DNA from: a virus
Taxonomy: Duplodnaviria > Heunggongvirae > Uroviricota > Caudoviricetes
IMG/VR virus record: IMGVR_UViG_648276653_000008
Reading direction: 5' to 3' (one strand)
DNA length: 4,733 nucleotides
The position numbers were made by a program, and so were the translations under genes. Positions 1-4,733 of the stretch are shown here, piece after piece. The notes beneath the pieces are model-generated. The model searched no databases and was not told the origin of the DNA. It saw only the letters and a list, made by a program, of their open reading frames with translations. Position 1 is the stretch's first letter; every line of letters begins with the position of its first letter.

Positions 1-1971
1 GGTCAGACGGAGCAGGAAGCTCACGCCCTTCACCACCTTCGGCGTGTCCCAGCGCGCCAGCACCTGATATTCCCCGCTGTCTGCGGTGACTTCGGCAGTC
101 AGGTGCTGCACCGCTGGCGGCGTGACACCATTCACCGTGCCGCTCTGGTCGCCGTCAAAGTGCGCCCCGTTATCCACGATGGCTTCTTTTTCCGGTACAT
201 GCTGCACGGCGGTGATGGCATACGTGCCGTCGTCGTTCTCACGGATACTCACGCAGCGGAACAGGCGCTGGCGCAGCGTCGGCAGCTTCAGCCCCCACAC
301 GCTGTATTCAGCAACGCCGTCAGGAACACGGCTCACTTTCACCTTCACGCCGTCGGTGACGGACTGAACCTCCACGCTGACCGGATTGCCACTTCCGTCA
401 ACCAGGCTTATCAGCGTGGTACCGGAGGATGGCAGCGTGATTTCACGGTCGAGCGTCAGTGTCCGCGTCTGGCTGTTCACTGCCAGCACACGCCCACCGA
501 TGCTGATCCCCGCATAGTCATCATCGCAGATTTCAATGACATCGCCCGGTACATGGCGAAGCCCTTCAGCACCCACGCTGAAGTCCACGGTCTGCGTTTC
601 CAGCAGTTCTGTTTTAATCAGCCACAGCCCGGCTCGGTGTGCCTGCCCCCGGCTGGTACAGCCAAAGGCATCCATCTTCGTGACGTTACGACCGTAACGG
701 GCAATGGCCTGCGTGTCCTCCACAAGCTCTGTTGCCGTCTCCCAGCCGTTGTTCGGGTCAATCCAGTTCACCTCAACGGCATTATGGCGGTCCTTCAGGG
801 CGCTGAAGCTGTAGCGGAACGGCGCGCCATCATCCGGCATCACCACATTACTGCGGTTATAGGTCCACACCTTATCTGATGGTCGGTCCTGCACGAACGT
901 CAGCGTCTGCCCGTTCCATACCGGCATACAGCGCATCGCCGAGCAGAAATCACTGAGAACATCCCACGCCTTACGCTGTGTGGTCAGGTACGCATTACAG
1001 GTGATGCGCGGCTCCGTGCCGCCAAAACCGTCCGGCACCGACTGGTCGCAACACTGGCCGATGACATACAGCGCCCATTTATCCACATCTGCCGCACCAA
1101 GACGTTTACCCATGCCGTAGCGCGGGTGGGTCAGCATATCCCACAGACACCAGGCCATGTTGTTGCTGTATGCTGGCTTAAACGTTCCGTCCCAGATACC
1201 GCTGTATTGCCGCGTCTGCGGGTTATAGTTCGACGGCACCTGCAGAATACGCCCGCGAAGATGATAATTACGGCTCACCTGCTGGCTGCCGAACTGCTCC
1301 GAATCCACCTGTACGCCGACCAGTGCCGTGTTCGGGTAGCACTGTTTCACATCGATGATTTCGGTGTATGACGACCAGAGCGTTTTGTTCTGCAGCTGGT
1401 CTGTGGTGCTGTCCGGCGTCATCCTGCGCATCCGGATGTTGAACGGGCGCGGCGGCAGATTATCCACCACTACCGAGGCCAGATACTGCGAGGTGGTTTT
1501 GCCCTTAATGGTGATGTCTTTTTCCGTCACCCAGCCACCGTTACGTTGTATCTGAACCAGCAGGCGAACTTCCGACGGATTCCTGTCCCCCTTTGAGGTG
1601 GTTTCCACCAGTGCCTGCACACCGAAGGTAAAGCGCAGACGGTCAATGTTTGCAGACGTAATGGTGCGGGTGATCGGCGTGTCATATTTCACTTCCGTAC
1701 CCAGCACCGTCTCGGAGCCGGAGGATTCAAATCCCTCCGGCGGTGACTGCTCCTGCTCACCGGCCCGGAACACCACCGTGACGCCGGATATATTGGTATT
1801 CCCCTCACTGTCCAGCACCGGCGTACTGTTCAGCAGCACGCTTTTTAATCCATCCACCGGACCTTCAACCGGCCCTTCACTGATGGCGTCTATCACGCTC
1901 AGCATCTGGGATGATTTCAGGTTGTCCTTCGCTTCGCGCGGGGTATGCCCCTTACTGCTGCCTTTACCCAT
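1..1971 (-). CDS. J: Host specificity / central tail fibre protein J, N-terminal 657 codons (5'-partial in window; gene continues beyond position 1)
   Basis: Minus-strand ATG at 1971..1969; frame stays open to position 1 with no stop (consistent with no complete minus ORF in the track here). My translation starts MGKGSSKGHTPREAKDN and at the window edge reads LARWDTPKVVKGVSFLLRLT, which I recognise as lambda gpJ. Sits directly downstream of I, as in lambda. Confidence 0.93.
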   Translation of the reverse strand, partial: MGKGSSKGHTPREAKDNLKSSQMLSVIDAISEGPVEGPVDGLKSVLLNSTPVLDSEGNTNISGVTVVFRAGEQEQSPPEGFESSGSETVLGTEVKYDTPITRTITSANIDRLRFTFGVQALVETTSKGDRNPSEVRLLVQIQRNGGWVTEKDITIKGKTTSQYLASVVVDNLPPRPFNIRMRRMTPDSTTDQLQNKTLWSSYTEIIDVKQCYPNTALVGVQVDSEQFGSQQVSRNYHLRGRILQVPSNYNPQTRQYSGIWDGTFKPAYSNNMAWCLWDMLTHPRYGMGKRLGAADVDKWALYVIGQCCDQSVPDGFGGTEPRITCNAYLTTQRKAWDVLSDFCSAMRCMPVWNGQTLTFVQDRPSDKVWTYNRSNVVMPDDGAPFRYSFSALKDRHNAVEVNWIDPNNGWETATELVEDTQAIARYGRNVTKMDAFGCTSRGQAHRAGLWLIKTELLETQTVDFSVGAEGLRHVPGDVIEICDDDYAGISIGGRVLAVNSQTRTLTLDREITLPSSGTTLISLVDGSGNPVSVEVQSVTDGVKVKVSRVPDGVAEYSVWGLKLPTLRQRLFRCVSIRENDDGTYAITAVQHVPEKEAIVDNGAHFDGDQSGTVNGVTPPAVQHLTAEVTADSGEYQVLARWDTPKVVKGVSFLLRLT

Positions 1972-1993
1972 TCCTCACGCTCCAGAAACGACA

Positions 1994-2013
1994 AAACCGC
2001 CCTGAGGCGGTTT
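1994..2013 (-). terminator. Stem-loop in the I-J intergenic spacer (8-bp stem, 4-nt loop) followed by a U-rich tract on the minus-strand transcript; candidate intrinsic terminator or mRNA-stabilising hairpin
   Basis: Minus strand reads AAACCGCC-TCAG-GGCGGTTT then TGTCGTTTCT: a perfect inverted repeat (plus 1994..2001 pairs with 2006..2013) with a U-rich 3' flank, between the I stop (2032..2034) and the J ATG (1971). Structure seen directly; function inferred. Confidence 0.35.
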
Positions 2014-2031
2014 CACATAAAACGTTTTGCA

Positions 2032-2679
2032 TCAGCGACCAATCACCACAACCTGACCACCGTCCCCTTCGTCTGCCGTGCTGATCTCCTGAGAAGCCAC
2101 CCGCGACCCCACGCGCATTTCACCGTACAGAACGGGCAGAACATTGCCCTGGGCAACCATGTTATCCAGTGAGGAGAAATAGGTGTTCTGCTTACCGTTA
2201 TCCGTTGTCTGTGTACGGGGAGTTCTGGCTTTCGGTGCCAGCATCTGCGCCACACCGCCAAGGATCATACTGGCCCCCGCAGCATACATGCCCGATAAAG
2301 CCGCAGCTCCCAGCCAGCCTGCAGGGTTCCACCACGCCACTGCAATCAGCGCCGCACCCAGCACCGCCTGAAACACACCGCCACTTTTGGCTCCTGCCAG
2401 ACGCGGCACGATATGGATCACAGCACCATTTGCCAGCGGTTCATTAAGACGGGCTGATAATTCATTTTCGCCTGCATCACGCCCGGCAATGCGCACCTGA
2501 TACCAGCCCTCATTCAGTTTCTGGCGAAACGACGGAAGCTGCGTGGCCAGCGCCCGGATGGCTTCGGCCCCCGTTTTCACACGAAGGTCGATGCGGCGGC
2601 CAAATCGTTGTAAATCCCCGTAAAGGCAGATGCGTGCCATGCCCGGTGACGCCAGAGGGAGTGTGTGCGTCGCTGCCAT
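2032..2679 (-). CDS. I: Tail tip assembly protein I (215 aa, stop included)
   Basis: Track ORF 2032..2679 (-), MAATHTLPLASPGMARICLYGDLQRFGRRIDLRVKTGAEAIRALA..., ending GDGGQVVVIGR; recognised as lambda gpI family. Its 5' end overlaps the 3' end of K by 103 nt in another frame, as in lambda. SD-like GAGAGG at 2691..2696. Confidence 0.9.
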   Translation of the reverse strand: MAATHTLPLASPGMARICLYGDLQRFGRRIDLRVKTGAEAIRALATQLPSFRQKLNEGWYQVRIAGRDAGENELSARLNEPLANGAVIHIVPRLAGAKSGGVFQAVLGAALIAVAWWNPAGWLGAAALSGMYAAGASMILGGVAQMLAPKARTPRTQTTDNGKQNTYFSSLDNMVAQGNVLPVLYGEMRVGSRVASQEISTADEGDGGQVVVIGR

Positions 2680-3320
2680 TTGTCTGTATACCTCTCTCGT
2701 TTGCTCAGTTGTTCAGGAATATGGTGCAGCAGCTCGCCGTCGCCACAGTAAATGGCGGCATGATTCGGCACCGATGAACCAAAACAGCACAGCAGCACGT
2801 CGCCAGGCTGCGCCTCTGTCAGTGGGACACGGTAAAAACCCGTTGCCTCCATATTGTCAAGATAGAGATTCTGACCGTGACGCCACCAGTCATCCTCGCG
2901 ATGAAAATCCGGCATCTCAATCCCCGCCAGATGATAAGCATCCCGGAACAGCGTGTAACAGTCCGTCACCCCGTGCTCAAAGCGCCGCCCGGTGAGATGC
3001 GGCACACAGCGGAACTTATGAATCGTCCCCCGGCAGACCAGCCACCACGGCAAATCACTCTGCACCTGCAGCCGCCGGTCGGCCTCACTCAGCCAGGGCA
3101 GACCACCGGGGTGGCTGTGGACCAGCGCCACAATCTCACCCTGCATTTCTGCCTGCAGCCAGTCTTCCGGCGACATACGGAAATACGCCTCCGGCTCACC
3201 GGAGATATTCACGCAGGGGAAATATCTTTCCCCCTCCGGCGTGCTTACCACGAAGCCGCACGACTCCGCTGGCGCACATCGCCGGGCGTGCGCCAGAATC
3301 GCTGATTCTGTCTGTGTCAT
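2577..3320 (-). CDS. K: Tail tip assembly protein K, JAB/MPN plus NlpC/P60 two-domain protein (247 aa from first ATG; alternative internal start at 3176 gives 199 aa)
   Basis: Track ORF 2577..3320 (-). Contains JAMM-like motif H68-S-H70-x7-S78-x2-D81 (VHSHPGGLPWLSEAD) and an NlpC/P60-like Cys (TDCYTLF, C121) with downstream His residues (NHAAIY, ELLHHI). Recognised as lambda gpK. First ATG lies 5 nt after the L stop. Confidence 0.88.
   Translation of the reverse strand: MTQTESAILAHARRCAPAESCGFVVSTPEGERYFPCVNISGEPEAYFRMSPEDWLQAEMQGEIVALVHSHPGGLPWLSEADRRLQVQSDLPWWLVCRGTIHKFRCVPHLTGRRFEHGVTDCYTLFRDAYHLAGIEMPDFHREDDWWRHGQNLYLDNMEATGFYRVPLTEAQPGDVLLCCFGSSVPNHAAIYCGDGELLHHIPEQLSKRERYTDKWQRRTHSLWRHRAWHASAFTGIYNDLAAASTFV
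3188..3192 (-). promoter_or_regulatory. Shine-Dalgarno (GGAGG) upstream of the internal K Met49 ATG at 3176
   Basis: Minus strand reads GCCGGAGGCGTATTTCCGTATG; GGAGG is the complement of plus cctcc at 3188..3192, with an 11-nt spacer. The first K ATG at 3320 has no comparable SD. Confidence 0.4.
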
Positions 3321-3325
3321 GGGAT

Positions 3326-4024
3326 TTACTGCGAAAGTTTGTTAATGGAAAGGAAGCCGCCAAAGTTGCCGACGTTATTGCGGAACTTACAACCGCTCAG
3401 GCATTTGCTGCATTTATCCTTCGTGATATCGGACGTCGGCTGGTCATATTCATCCGCGACTGCCGGACCGTGATAACCGCACTCATCACCGCGATAGGTC
3501 CAGGTGCAGGTGTTGGCCAGCATGATACGTCCCGGAAAAACAGCACCGTCCGTTTCCGTCGGCGTGGACAGTACAAAAGAGGCACTCACCGCGCTCAGTT
3601 CGCTGCACTGCTCAATGCGCCAGCGGCTGATCACCTCCTGCTCCGGATCGGCGTCACTGTTTCCGTTGACGAAGTTCACCGCATCCAGAAAACGGGCGTA
3701 AACCTTACGCCGGACCACCGTTCCGCCGACCAGACTCTGCAGATCTTCCGCCATCCCGGTGACCATACCGTACAGGTTAGAAACCGTCAGCGTGGGGCGC
3801 GTACTGGTGCCTTTGCCATTCAGTTCAAAACCACTCCCCTGAATGGGATACGGCTGATACTGTCGCCCCTGCCAGGTGACCGGCTCACCTTTTTCGTTCT
3901 GCTCATTACAGAAAAAATAACGTTCTCCACCGACCTCTGTCAGATCGATTTCCCAGAGCACCACGCTGGCCGACTGCTCCGCACGGGTGCATTCATTCAG
4001 TGTTTCCTGCCGGATATCCTGCAT
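3326..4024 (-). CDS. L: Tail tip protein L (232 aa, stop included)
   Basis: Track ORF 3326..4024 (-), MQDIRQETLNECTRAEQSASVVLWEIDLTEVGGERYFFCNEQ...; length and sequence match my recollection of lambda gpL. C-terminal Cys cluster (C173, C182, C205, C208, C212). Start overlaps the M stop (TGATG). Confidence 0.93.
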   Translation of the reverse strand: MQDIRQETLNECTRAEQSASVVLWEIDLTEVGGERYFFCNEQNEKGEPVTWQGRQYQPYPIQGSGFELNGKGTSTRPTLTVSNLYGMVTGMAEDLQSLVGGTVVRRKVYARFLDAVNFVNGNSDADPEQEVISRWRIEQCSELSAVSASFVLSTPTETDGAVFPGRIMLANTCTWTYRGDECGYHGPAVADEYDQPTSDITKDKCSKCLSGCKFRNNVGNFGGFLSINKLSQ

Positions 4025-4353
4025 CAGTTCACCACCTGTTTAAACTCTGCGCTGAACTCAACACGCAACATACTGACCTGCGACGACCATTTTGCGCAGG
4101 TCACCTTTATCTGCCTGTAACCATAAGGCGGCGTCCACAGAAAGGCCTTCCAGCCCCCGTGCTCAGCCAGAAACGACTCCAGCGCCGTGGCCTCCTCACG
4201 GGAGACAGACAGCGTCACGCTGTACGTTTTCAGGTCAGCGTTCAGCCCGGCAGGCGCACGCTGGGAATAGCCATCACCAAAGCGCACCTCCCTGACGGAA
4301 GGAGCAGATGTCACATCCATCCCGGGTTTCACTTTCCAGCGGAAGGTTTTCAT
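4024..4353 (-). CDS. M: Tail tip protein M (109 aa, stop included)
   Basis: Track ORF 4024..4353 (-), MKTFRWKVKPGMDVTSAPSVREVRFGDGYSQRAPAGLNADLKTYSV...; 109 aa as in lambda gpM. Strong SD GGAGG (plus 4360..4364) 6 nt upstream of the ATG. The ATG overlaps the H stop (ATGA). Confidence 0.92.
   Translation of the reverse strand: MKTFRWKVKPGMDVTSAPSVREVRFGDGYSQRAPAGLNADLKTYSVTLSVSREEATALESFLAEHGGWKAFLWTPPYGYRQIKVTCAKWSSQVSMLRVEFSAEFKQVVN
4029..4037 (-). promoter_or_regulatory. Shine-Dalgarno-like element for L (AGGTGGTGA), inside the 3' end of M
   Basis: Minus strand reads AACAGGTGGTGAACTGATG; one mismatch to the extended SD AGGAGGTGA, 4-nt spacer. Confidence 0.4.
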
Positions 4354-4733
4354 CGTCCACCTCCGGAGAACAGACCACCATCGCGCATCTGCCCGGTCAC
4401 AACATCCATTGCCGCCTTACGGGCTACGTCATAAACAGCCTTCAGCGCCTGTGGCCCTATCTGACCGTTCGTGCCGTCGTTGTTAATCACCACATGGTTA
4501 TTCTGCTCAAACTTCCCGGACGCCTGCGAGCGGCTGTCCGCCATGCTGCCCGGTGTACCGACATAACCGCCGGTGGCATAGCCGCGCATCAGCCGGTAGA
4601 GATTCCCCACGCCAATCCGGCTGGTTGCCTCCTTAGTGAAGACAAATTCACCACGGTGAACAATCCCCGCTGGCTCATATTTGCCGCCGGTTCCCGTAAA
4701 TCCCCCGGTTGCAAAATGGAATTTCGCCGCAGC
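4350..4733 (-). CDS. H: Tail tape measure protein H, C-terminal 127 codons plus stop (3'-partial in window; gene starts beyond position 4733)
   Basis: Manual minus-strand translation in the frame of track ORF 4350..4610 shows no stop between 4611 and 4733: AAAKFHFATGGFTGTGGKYEPAGIVHRGEFVFTKEATSRIGVGNLYRLMRGYATGGYVGTPGS...MRDGGLFSGGGR*. The track's M at 4610 is a GTG valine codon inside a longer frame. Position immediately upstream of M fits lambda gene order; sequence resembles the lambda gpH C-terminus as I recall it. Confidence 0.85.
   Translation of the reverse strand, partial: AAAKFHFATGGFTGTGGKYEPAGIVHRGEFVFTKEATSRIGVGNLYRLMRGYATGGYVGTPGSMADSRSQASGKFEQNNHVVINNDGTNGQIGPQALKAVYDVARKAAMDVVTGQMRDGGLFSGGGR
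4360..4364 (-). promoter_or_regulatory. Shine-Dalgarno for M (GGAGG, 6-nt spacer to ATG), inside the 3' end of H
   Basis: Minus strand reads CCGGAGGTGGACGATG; core GGAGG is the complement of plus cctcc at 4360..4364. Confidence 0.6.

What the first reader, a model, noticed from the sequence alone, without database searches (positions are those of the whole stretch)
2577..3320. K pairs a JAB/MPN deubiquitinase-like domain with an NlpC/P60 papain-like domain, next to ubiquitin-like I
Seen in sequence: K carries VHSHPGGLPWLSEAD (JAMM motif) in its N-terminal half and a Cys/His arrangement typical of NlpC/P60 peptidases (C121 in TDCYTLF; H187; H199/H200) in its C-terminal half. From the literature on prokaryotic ubiquitin-like systems, gpK is described as JAB plus NlpC/P60 and the N-terminal domain of gpI as a ubiquitin-like beta-grasp fold, suggesting that K processes or conjugates I during tail-tip assembly. 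This is the most system-like content of the window, but it is already described for lambda and I cannot claim novelty.
Basis: partly seen in the sequence, partly recalled or inferred. Interest (0 to 1): 0.5.

Follow-up and report, generated by a model that had tools for sequence, protein, structure and literature searches.

The report
Lambda tail-tip protease K with substrate I
This is the ordinary tail-tip assembly module of a lambda-like E. coli prophage: protein K, a double peptidase, sits next to protein I, which carries a ubiquitin-like N-terminal domain. The pairing was predicted in 2006, and recent work indicates K cuts that domain off I during assembly.

Summary
On the minus strand, 2577-3320 is a 247-aa homologue of lambda gpK. 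It has a Prok-JAB/MPN+ domain (aa 3-104; E19, H68-x-H70, S78, D81) and an NlpC/P60 domain (aa 111-224; C121, H187, H199). Both pass Pfam's thresholds, and both active sites are kept in about 95% of 108 diverse homologues. A confident model matches a JAMM1-SAMP2 desampylase, Rpn11 and CSN5 in the N-half, and MepS/LytE in the C-half.

The next gene, I (2032-2679), overlaps K by 103 nt. It encodes a MoaD-like ubiquitin-like domain, an invariant Gly-rich junction (G96...G100-G101), then the hydrophobic helices and plug seen in lambda tail-tip structures from about residue 101 or 134 onward.

The window is 94-97% identical to lambdoid phages and prophages, which occur in 4619 of 5426 complete E. 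coli genomes.

Iyer et al. 2006 predicted it. [quoted passage not shown] F-pyocin data show the same N-terminal removal. "Conjugation" has no support.

The NlpC/P60 half has no reported substrate that I could find. In passing, the reference lambda record lacks one G, which truncates K to 199 aa and removes the JAMM glutamate. Already known, low interest.

The parts
4350..4733 (-). 3' end of gene H (tape measure protein, C-terminal 127 aa; runs off the window)
   Evidence: Translation is open to the stop at 4350-4352. Annotated as H in matching phages.
4024..4353 (-). gene M, distal tail protein (109 aa)
   Evidence: Pfam Phage_min_tail, 133 bits; ORF.
3326..4024 (-). gene L, tail-tip hub protein with Fe-S domain (232 aa)
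   Evidence: Pfam Phage_tail_L, 337 bits; ORF.
2577..3320 (-). gene K, tail-tip assembly peptidase (247 aa); its ATG lies 5 nt after the L stop
   Evidence: ORF; Pfam JAB plus NlpC/P60; phrog_30 minor tail protein; same layout as K in resequenced lambda and in phage 434.
3009..3314 (-). K residues 3-104: JAB/MPN+ (JAMM) metallopeptidase domain. E19 is at 3264-3266 and H68-S-H70...S78..D81 at 3078-3119.
   Evidence: Pfam PF14464, 52.3 bits. PDB 2kks_A at E 1.3e-5. Foldseek hits to 5lda_A JAMM1-SAMP2, Rpn11 and CSN5. Residues conserved in 99-105 of 109 sequences.
2649..2990 (-). K residues 111-224: NlpC/P60 (C40) papain-like peptidase domain. C121 is at 2958-2960, H187 at 2760-2762 and H199 at 2724-2726.
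   Evidence: Pfam PF00877, 50.4 bits. Foldseek hits to MepS, LytE and Acd autolysins. C121 in 103 of 109 sequences, H187 in 105, H199 in 105.
2577..2679 (-). 103-nt dual-coding overlap: K residues 214-247 and I residues 1-34, with I in the -1 frame relative to K
   Evidence: Coordinates, sequence. A comparable K/I overlap exists in loci whose K homologue matched the distant query P0371 at about 46-48% identity.
2032..2679 (-). gene I, tail-tip plug precursor (215 aa if started at ATG 2679)
   Evidence: ORF; Pfam Lambda_tail_I; lambda gpI of 8IYK at E 1e-108.
2389..2640 (-). I residues 14-97: ubiquitin-like (MoaD/ThiS-type beta-grasp) domain
   Evidence: Pfam PF06805 covers aa 14-97. The model has beta-beta-alpha-beta-alpha-beta order. 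All 50 best Foldseek hits are MoaD, SAMP, Urm1, Ub or SUMO.
2377..2394 (-). I residues 96-101 (G-A-K-S-G-G): the conserved glycine junction where the ubiquitin-like domain is most likely cut off
   Evidence: G96 and G101 are present in 86 of 87 I sequences from the fetched loci. Lambda gpI is resolved from residue 101 onward in closed tails (PMC11101478). The exact bond is not determined here.
2035..2376 (-). I residues 102-215: two hydrophobic helices plus the plug/beta-strand domain that remains in the mature tail tip
   Evidence: Alignment to lambda gpI chains 8iyk_I and 9e7m. Resolved residues are 134/135-223 or 101-223 in lambda.
1994..2013 (-). 8-bp G+C-rich hairpin followed by a U-rich tract in the 60-nt I-J spacer
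   Evidence: Fold of -20.7 kcal/mol, z -2.2. The equivalent site is annotated as a terminator in phage 434 OL657226.
1..1971 (-). 5' part of gene J, central tail fibre (first 657 aa; runs off the window)
   Evidence: Open translation starting MGKGSSKGHTPREAK. Annotated as J in matching phages.

Best explanation
The window is the H'-M-L-K-I-J' tail-tip module of a lambdoid prophage. I is made as a precursor with four parts: a MoaD-like ubiquitin-like domain (about aa 14-97), a conserved glycine junction (G96-A-K-S-G100-G101), two hydrophobic helices, and a C-terminal plug domain. K is a cytoplasmic assembly enzyme that does not end up in the virion. Its JAMM metallopeptidase domain (E19, H68, H70, S78, D81, presumably binding zinc) recognises the ubiquitin-like domain of I once I has docked on the J/L tip complex. 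It then cuts at the glycine junction. The released ubiquitin-like domain is discarded, and the rest of I stays as the trimeric plug that holds the C-terminus of the tape measure protein. The cut acts as an irreversible checkpoint before the tip joins H and M and the tube polymerises.

Shown here: the domain architecture, conservation of both active sites, conservation of the junction glycines, gene order and gene overlap. Taken from the literature: K is absent from virions, only I residues from about 101 or 134 onward are seen in tails, K is reported to cleave I, and the homologous F-pyocin plug loses its N-terminus. Inferred: the exact bond cut, which half of K does the cutting, and the role of the NlpC/P60 half, whose intact Cys-His-His triad argues for a second, still unassigned hydrolytic step.
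For: Both Pfam domains in K and Lambda_tail_I in I pass their thresholds. The K model has pLDDT 84. Its N-half matches the Pyrococcus JAMM1-SAMP2 complex, Rpn11 and CSN5, and its C-half matches MepS, LytE and Acd. The best NCBIfam match of the N-half is the archaeal desampylase family, below its cutoff. In 109 aligned sequences (K plus 108 representatives at about 35-60% identity), E19 is kept in 103, H68 in 105, H70 in 104, S78 in 99, D81 in 105, C121 in 103, H187 in 105 and H199 in 105. G96 and G101 of I are present in 86 of 87 I sequences. K-then-I adjacency and overlap persist in distant loci. The I model's 50 best fold hits are all MoaD, SAMP, Urm1, Ub or SUMO. From the literature: the prediction by Iyer et al. 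[quoted passage not shown]
Against: The only statement that K is the enzyme cutting I is a second-hand conference summary, and I found no primary data. The F-pyocin authors say the cleavage mechanism is still unresolved, and they report that the N-terminus is also lost when PA0640 is expressed alone in E. coli. My I model is low-confidence (mean pLDDT 47.6, 55-67 in the ubiquitin-like part). The sequence-profile link to MoaD is not significant (1v8c_A, E 0.47). Nothing here tells which of K's two active sites makes the cut, nor whether the cut follows G96/A97 or G101.
Confidence: 0.85

Rival explanations
1. K's deubiquitinase-like domain is mainly a counter-defence. It would strip host ubiquitin-like proteins that Bil-type systems conjugate to the central tail fibre J, rather than process I.
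For: Hor et al. raise this as a speculation (bioRxiv 10.1101/2023.09.04.556158). K acts on the J-containing tip complex, and its nearest structural relatives remove ubiquitin-like proteins.
Against: K is needed for tail assembly in hosts without Bil. A cognate ubiquitin-like domain with conserved junction glycines is encoded in the very next, overlapping gene in every locus examined. K matches no PADLOC model. This could at most be a secondary activity.
Confidence: 0.07
2. The NlpC/P60 half is the functional core. Under this reading K is a cell-wall endopeptidase that opens peptidoglycan during infection or lysis, as the database names 'C40 family peptidase' and 'phage cell wall peptidase' suggest.
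For: The Pfam and fold matches are to gamma-D-Glu-mDAP endopeptidases such as MepS and LytE. There is a weak match to TIGR02219, 'putative phage cell wall peptidase'. Ge and Wang note that lambda's peptidoglycan-cleaving enzyme is unidentified.
Against: gpK was not detected in virions by mass spectrometry or cryo-EM, so it cannot act at entry. From established lambda biology, R/Rz carry out lysis. The TIGR02219 score of 23.7 bits is far below its cutoff of 81.9. K mutants block tail assembly, not lysis.
Confidence: 0.04
3. One of K's peptidase domains, most plausibly NlpC/P60, makes the still unassigned cut that converts tape measure gpH into gpH* and gpHC.
For: The catalyst of gpH cleavage is stated to be unknown (PMC12617516). 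The cleavage lies in a glycine-rich region. K's second active site is strictly conserved and has no assigned substrate. I contacts the gpH C-terminus.
Against: gpH is cleaved after tail assembly, whereas K acts early on the tip complex and is absent from finished tails. There is no experimental link.
Confidence: 0.06
4. The ubiquitin-like domain of I is conjugated, ubiquitin-style, to another tail protein, and K serves as the maturation and deconjugation enzyme.
For: The domain is MoaD/ubiquitin-like and has conserved C-terminal glycines.
Against: No E1/ThiF- or E2-like gene lies in the window; its ORFs are H, M, L, K, I and J. From established knowledge, the lambda genome has none either. The ubiquitin-like part is not seen in virion structures.
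Confidence: 0.02

Closest known systems
Bacteriophage lambda gpK / gpI (TAPK / TAPI of Iyer, Burroughs and Aravind 2006)
   Same: Same gene order H-M-L-K-I-J. Same 247-aa K with JAB plus NlpC/P60. Same 103-nt K/I overlap. The ubiquitin-like domain and junction of I are numbered identically to lambda gpI up to residue 102. The window has 94-96% nucleotide identity to lambdoid phages over all or 96% of its length.
   Different: I is 215 aa rather than 223 aa because the variable hydrophobic linker is shorter. The reference lambda record annotates a truncated 199-aa K because it has one G fewer. There is no functional difference.
Archaeal JAMM1 desampylase (HvJAMM1, PfJAMM1-SAMP2, PDB 5LDA) and Rpn11/CSN5
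   Same: MPN+ fold and the E...HxH...S..D zinc site. The substrate is a MoaD/ubiquitin-type beta-grasp domain cut at its C-terminal glycine.
   Different: K cuts a linear fusion within one precursor rather than an isopeptide conjugate. It is fused to a second peptidase and works in virion assembly, with no E1/E2 partner. The NCBIfam desampylase score of 29.9 bits is far below the cutoff of 130, so K is not an orthologue.
F-type pyocin PA0639 / PA0640 of Pseudomonas aeruginosa
   Same: A gpK homologue is required for tip formation. The gpI-like plug is seen only from residue 127 onward. Its N-terminus is present in stalled precursors and removed in mature particles. The chain 25vf_9 / 9l9p_A-type 'putative tail assembly protein' matches I at E 2.7e-21 and 1.8e-16.
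   Different: This is a tailocin rather than a phage, and it is distantly related in sequence. The protease responsible has not been demonstrated there.
NlpC/P60 cell-wall endopeptidases (MepS/Spr, LytE, C40 family)
   Same: Papain-like fold with a Cys-His-His triad.
   Different: K is a cytoplasmic assembly factor that is absent from virions. Its substrate is unknown and is probably a protein rather than peptidoglycan.

Membership tests
JAB/MPN+ (JAMM) metallopeptidases, Pfam PF14464 Prok-JAB | Profile match above the curated threshold | tested here: met
   52.3 bits against a cutoff of 25, E 6e-14, aa 3-104 covering profile positions 3-112 of 114.
JAB/MPN+ (JAMM) metallopeptidases, Pfam PF14464 Prok-JAB | Complete JAMM motif E...HxH...S..D | tested here: met
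   E19, H68, H70, S78 and D81 are present. They are kept in 99-105 of 109 aligned sequences, K plus 108 diverse homologues.
JAB/MPN+ (JAMM) metallopeptidases, Pfam PF14464 Prok-JAB | MPN fold | tested here: met
   The model has pLDDT 84. Foldseek gives 5lda_A at E 5e-5 and TM 0.67 normalised to the target, plus Rpn11 and CSN5 hits.
JAB/MPN+ (JAMM) metallopeptidases, Pfam PF14464 Prok-JAB | Zinc-dependent cleavage after the C-terminal glycine of a ubiquitin-like domain | not testable with these tools
   Reported for lambda gpK/gpI only in a conference summary (PMC12908700).
NlpC/P60 (MEROPS C40), Pfam PF00877 | Profile match above the curated threshold | tested here: met
   50.4 bits against a cutoff of 23, aa 111-224 covering profile positions 1-105 of 105.
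NlpC/P60 (MEROPS C40), Pfam PF00877 | Catalytic Cys, His and a third polar residue | tested here: met
   C121, H187 and H199 are conserved in 103, 105 and 105 of 109 sequences. H200 is conserved in 101.
NlpC/P60 (MEROPS C40), Pfam PF00877 | Papain-like alpha+beta fold | tested here: met
   Foldseek hits to 7v6u, 9ubf, MepS (8xup), LytE (8i2e) and 4xcm at E 1e-4 to 1e-3.
NlpC/P60 (MEROPS C40), Pfam PF00877 | Peptidoglycan stem-peptide endopeptidase activity | not testable with these tools
   This is doubtful on biological grounds: K is absent from virions.
Lambda tail assembly protein I (PF06805) / MoaD-ThiS-type ubiquitin-like beta-grasp | Family profile match | tested here: met
   83.7 bits against a cutoff of 23.8, aa 14-97. 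Lambda gpI at E 1e-108.
Lambda tail assembly protein I (PF06805) / MoaD-ThiS-type ubiquitin-like beta-grasp | Beta-grasp fold of the N-terminal ~90 residues | tested here: inconclusive
   The model's pLDDT is only 55-67 in this part. Even so, all 50 best Foldseek hits are MoaD, SAMP, Urm1, Ub or SUMO, led by 1v8c_A at E 9e-4. The sequence profile reaches 1v8c_A only at E 0.47. Iyer et al. 2006 obtained the link by PSI-BLAST.
Lambda tail assembly protein I (PF06805) / MoaD-ThiS-type ubiquitin-like beta-grasp | Conserved glycine(s) at the C-terminal end of the ubiquitin-like domain | tested here: met
   G96 and G101 are present in 86 of 87 sequences and G100 in 83 of 87.
Lambdoid tail-tip assembly module | Gene order H-M-L-K-I-J on one strand | tested here: met
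   The annotations of matching phages agree.
Ubiquitin-like conjugation system (E1/E2 plus ubiquitin-like protein plus deubiquitinase) | E1-like adenylating enzyme and/or E2-like enzyme encoded with the ubiquitin-like protein | tested here: not met
   The only coding ORFs in the window are H, M, L, K, I and J. Iyer et al. list the phage set as ubiquitin-like protein plus JAB only.

The most novel reading that the evidence does not exclude
K's NlpC/P60 half keeps its Cys-His-His triad as strictly as the JAMM site across distant homologues. It may therefore carry out a second proteolytic step in tail morphogenesis that nobody has assigned. The two most interesting candidates are the long-unexplained cleavage of tape measure gpH into gpH* and gpHC, and a second trimming cut in I. 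Alternatively, K's deubiquitinase may also remove host Bil-type ubiquitin-like tags from J.
Probability: 0.15. Interest if true: 0.55.

Novelty: already known. Interest (0 to 1): 0.2.

Why it matters
The K/I pair is a minimal, E1/E2-free pairing of a ubiquitin-like domain with a JAMM peptidase, used as a proteolytic checkpoint in assembling a virus tail. It bears on the prokaryotic origin of deubiquitinases and on how siphophage and tailocin tips mature. None of this is new for this window, which is an ordinary member of a module found in most E. coli genomes. The practical value lies in annotation. Database names such as 'C40 family peptidase' or 'cell wall hydrolase' mislead, and the 199-aa K of the reference lambda record lacks part of the JAB domain because of a one-base discrepancy.

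Tried and rejected
1. Programmed -1 frameshift making a K-I fusion. I lies in the -1 frame of K, its frame is open from 2712, and phrog_28576 is a K-I fusion profile. I rejected this because there is no X XXY YYZ slippery heptamer in 2580-2712. The fused K-I proteins in the database are singletons or clusters of 1-2 members, as expected from frameshift errors or pseudogenes. I also has its own ATG preceded by GAGG.

2. Fetching distant loci with a 70-sequence K alignment failed because no stretch was conserved enough. A 10-sequence alignment returned only near-identical loci. P0289 gave no locus. P0321 and P0371 gave 34 useful distant loci.

3. The structure prediction of full-length I gave a poor model (pLDDT 47.6). 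The alignment was shallow because all listed homologues are at least 75% identical. I therefore treat its fold hits as supportive only.

4. A sequence-profile search of the ubiquitin-like domain of I against the PDB gave no significant hit outside the family (MoaD-related 1v8c_A at E 0.47).

5. PADLOC shows no defence or anti-defence family for K. I gives a weak LeoBC match (E 2e-5) over its hydrophobic linker, which I regard as compositional.

6. The promoter/terminator scan of 1900-3400 found nothing above shuffle expectation.

Full report
**What is in the window**

All long coding ORFs lie on the minus strand and form one module:
- the 3' end of H (4350-4733),
- M (4024-4353),
- L (3326-4024),
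- K (2577-3320, 247 aa),
- I (2032-2679, 215 aa),
- the first 657 codons of J (1-1971).

Pfam assigns Phage_min_tail to M, Phage_tail_L to L, Prok-JAB plus NLPC_P60 to K, and Lambda_tail_I to I. All are above the curated thresholds. PHROGs gives tail families for all four.

The best-matching lambdoid phages (mEp332, 434, 2H10 and others) cover all or 96% of the window at 93-96% identity. E. coli prophages reach up to 96.9%. Related sequence occurs in 4619 of 5426 complete E. coli genomes, with a median of three places per genome that has any. The I protein is 100% identical to an existing E. coli protein cluster. This is therefore a typical lambdoid prophage tail-tip module.

**Checking the observation**

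The two Pfam matches score 52.3 and 50.4 bits against cutoffs of 25 and 23.

An exhaustive HMMER search of 1.84 billion cluster representatives found 2833 relatives. I aligned 108 full-length representatives, mostly 35-60% identical to K. Both active sites are conserved in the 109 aligned sequences:

| Site | Residue | Conserved in |
|---|---|---|
| JAMM | E19 | 103 |
| JAMM | H68 | 105 |
| JAMM | H70 | 104 |
| JAMM | S78 | 99 (plus 6 Thr) |
| JAMM | D81 | 105 |
| NlpC/P60 | C121 | 103 |
| NlpC/P60 | H187 | 105 |
| NlpC/P60 | H199 | 105 |
| NlpC/P60 | H200 | 101 |

Both halves are therefore under selection as enzymes.

**Folds**

The AlphaFold2 model of K is confident (mean pLDDT 84, pTM 0.75). 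Foldseek against the PDB returns two groups of hits:
- For the N-half: Pyrococcus JAMM1 free and bound to the ubiquitin-like SAMP2 (5LD9, 5LDA; E about 5e-5), then Rpn11 and CSN5.
- For the C-half: NlpC/P60 peptidases (7V6U, Acd33800, MepS, LytE).

By sequence, the best solved relative is the JAB protein 2KKS (E 1.3e-5). The best NCBIfam model is the haloarchaeal desampylase, far below its cutoff.

The model of I is poor overall (mean pLDDT 47.6). Residues 11-93 reach 55-67 and have a beta-beta-alpha-beta-alpha-beta order. All 50 best Foldseek hits for it are MoaD, SAMP, Urm1, ubiquitin, SUMO or NEDD8 structures. They are led by the Thermus MoaD-related protein 1V8C (E 9e-4). A Thermus thermophilus MoaD homologue was also the query with which Iyer et al. 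first linked this family to MoaD. A profile of eight diverse ubiquitin-like domains reaches 1V8C only at E 0.47. I therefore rate my own test of the beta-grasp fold as supportive but not conclusive. The family assignment itself (PF06805) is solid.

**Anatomy of I and the probable cut site**

I identified 87 I sequences from 116 fetched loci. They include loci whose K homologue matched the distant queries P0371 and P0321 at only about 46-48% and 31% identity. The ubiquitin-like domain ends in h-h-P-x-h-x-G-[AS]-K-x-G-G-h-F, where h is a hydrophobic residue. G96 and G101 are present in 86 of 87 sequences and G100 in 83.

Downstream come two hydrophobic helices and the C-terminal region. This part aligns with the portion of lambda gpI built in the tail-tip structures 8IYK, 8IYL, 8K35, 8XCG and 9E7M. 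Those studies resolve gpI only from residue 135 (PMC10721106), 134 (PMC12617516) or 101 (PMC11101478). None of them sees the N-terminal domain. Residue 101 is the second glycine of the conserved G-G, and lambda numbering is identical to this protein up to that point.

**What is known**

- Iyer, Burroughs and Aravind (2006) described exactly this pairing. They predicted that the JAB domain of TAPK releases the ubiquitin-like domain of TAPI at its C-terminal glycine, and they raised a possible role for the NlpC/P60 domain.
- gpK was not found in virions by mass spectrometry.
- A report of the October 2025 phage conference summarises work from the Davidson laboratory. [quoted passage not shown]
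- A 2026 preprint on F-pyocin gives independent support. The N-terminus of the gpI homologue PA0640 is present in assembly-stalled precursors and absent from mature particles. Deleting the gpK homologue PA0639 gives tip-less tubes. The protease itself was not identified there.

I found no primary paper with the lambda cleavage data in the searchable library.

**Mechanism and its rivals**

The best-supported mechanism is that K is a non-structural maturation peptidase that removes the ubiquitin-like domain of I at the glycine junction once I sits in the J/L complex. This licenses the next assembly step, and the C-terminal part of I remains as the lumen plug holding the tape-measure C-terminus.

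I considered four rivals:
- A counter-defence deubiquitinase against Bil-type tagging of J, speculated by Hor et al..
- A cell-wall hydrolase role for the NlpC/P60 half.
- A role in the unexplained gpH to gpH* cleavage.
- Ubiquitin-style conjugation.

None is favoured by the evidence, and conjugation lacks any E1 or E2 gene. What remains open is which active site cuts I, the exact bond, and what the strictly conserved NlpC/P60 triad is for.

**Things rejected**

I lies in the -1 frame relative to K and overlaps it by 103 nt. One PHROG family is a K-I fusion profile. However, the overlap contains no slippery heptamer, fused proteins in the databases are singletons, and I has its own start. A programmed frameshift is therefore unlikely.

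**Verdict**

The feature is already known and is an ordinary member of its kind. Interest is low. The residual interest lies in the unassigned NlpC/P60 activity and in annotation problems noted in passing.

Noticed in passing
window 3171-3320 (K codons 1-50); L002 (NC_001416) about 1368, which is lambda coordinate about 14266-14267: The reference lambda records J02459 and NC_001416 have one G fewer (GGAGGC-TATTTCC) than this window. That puts the first 48 codons of K out of frame, so K is annotated as 199 aa starting at M49, without the JAMM glutamate E19. Resequenced lambda PV340536 and phage 434 annotate a 744-nt, 247-aa K starting 5 nt after L, as in this window. Several other lambda-derived records (including KT232076, LC730321, DE3 and the imm21/imm434 hybrids) align the 401-nt query over a 402-nt span. 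Many database '199-aa C40 peptidase' clusters probably inherit this truncation.
   Followed up: yes
L001 (phage mEp332, PV340541), locus about 3720-3730: mEp332 lacks one G in the G5 run (GGAGGGGGAAAG) near K codon 30. Its K is therefore annotated as 233 aa from an out-of-frame ATG. This is either a homopolymer sequencing error or a real K frameshift.
   Followed up: partly
window 2580-2679: Three start codons are in use in public annotations of I: ATG 2679 (215 aa here, 223 in lambda, preceded by GAGG), ATG 2640 (M14, the 200-202-aa forms), and GTG 2580 overlapping the K stop (the 190-aa lambda I in PV340536 and the 182-aa clusters). The GTG start would remove the first two beta-strands of the ubiquitin-like domain (residues 15-32). 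Those residues are conserved in distant homologues, so that start is probably wrong. K's conserved domain ends (about residue 227) where I's conserved region begins (M14). The dual-coding stretch therefore pairs a variable K tail with a conserved I N-terminus.
   Followed up: partly
L083-L085 (IMG/VR contigs), for example L084 2387-3202 and 3193-4050, followed by I at 4011-4706: Distant metagenomic phages carry two tandem K paralogues ahead of I. Both have JAB-like (ECxG, HxH, S..D) and NlpC/P60-like motifs. Their I homologue has a longer ubiquitin-like domain and the junction G-A-G-G-D-G.
   Followed up: no
window 1994-2013 (minus strand), in the 60-nt I-J spacer: An 8-bp G+C-rich hairpin (AAACCGCC-UCAG-GGCGGUUU) is followed by a U-rich tract. 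It folds at -20.7 kcal/mol with z -2.2. The equivalent site is annotated as a terminator in phage 434 (OL657226). My simple terminator scan did not pick it up.
   Followed up: partly
window 2206-2553 (I residues 43-158): There is a weak PADLOC match of I to the candidate defence model LeoBC (E 2e-5, 21.9 bits). It spans part of the ubiquitin-like domain and the hydrophobic Gly/Ala-rich linker. It is probably compositional.
   Followed up: no
window 2275-2376 (I residues 102-135): The hydrophobic linker of I is the variable part of the protein. It is 8 residues shorter than in lambda, and at least three sequence types occur among close homologues (AVAWWNPAGWLGAA..., ATAIWMPG..., AGSFFTAGATLAAWGAA...). 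This suggests mosaic exchange within the gene.
   Followed up: no
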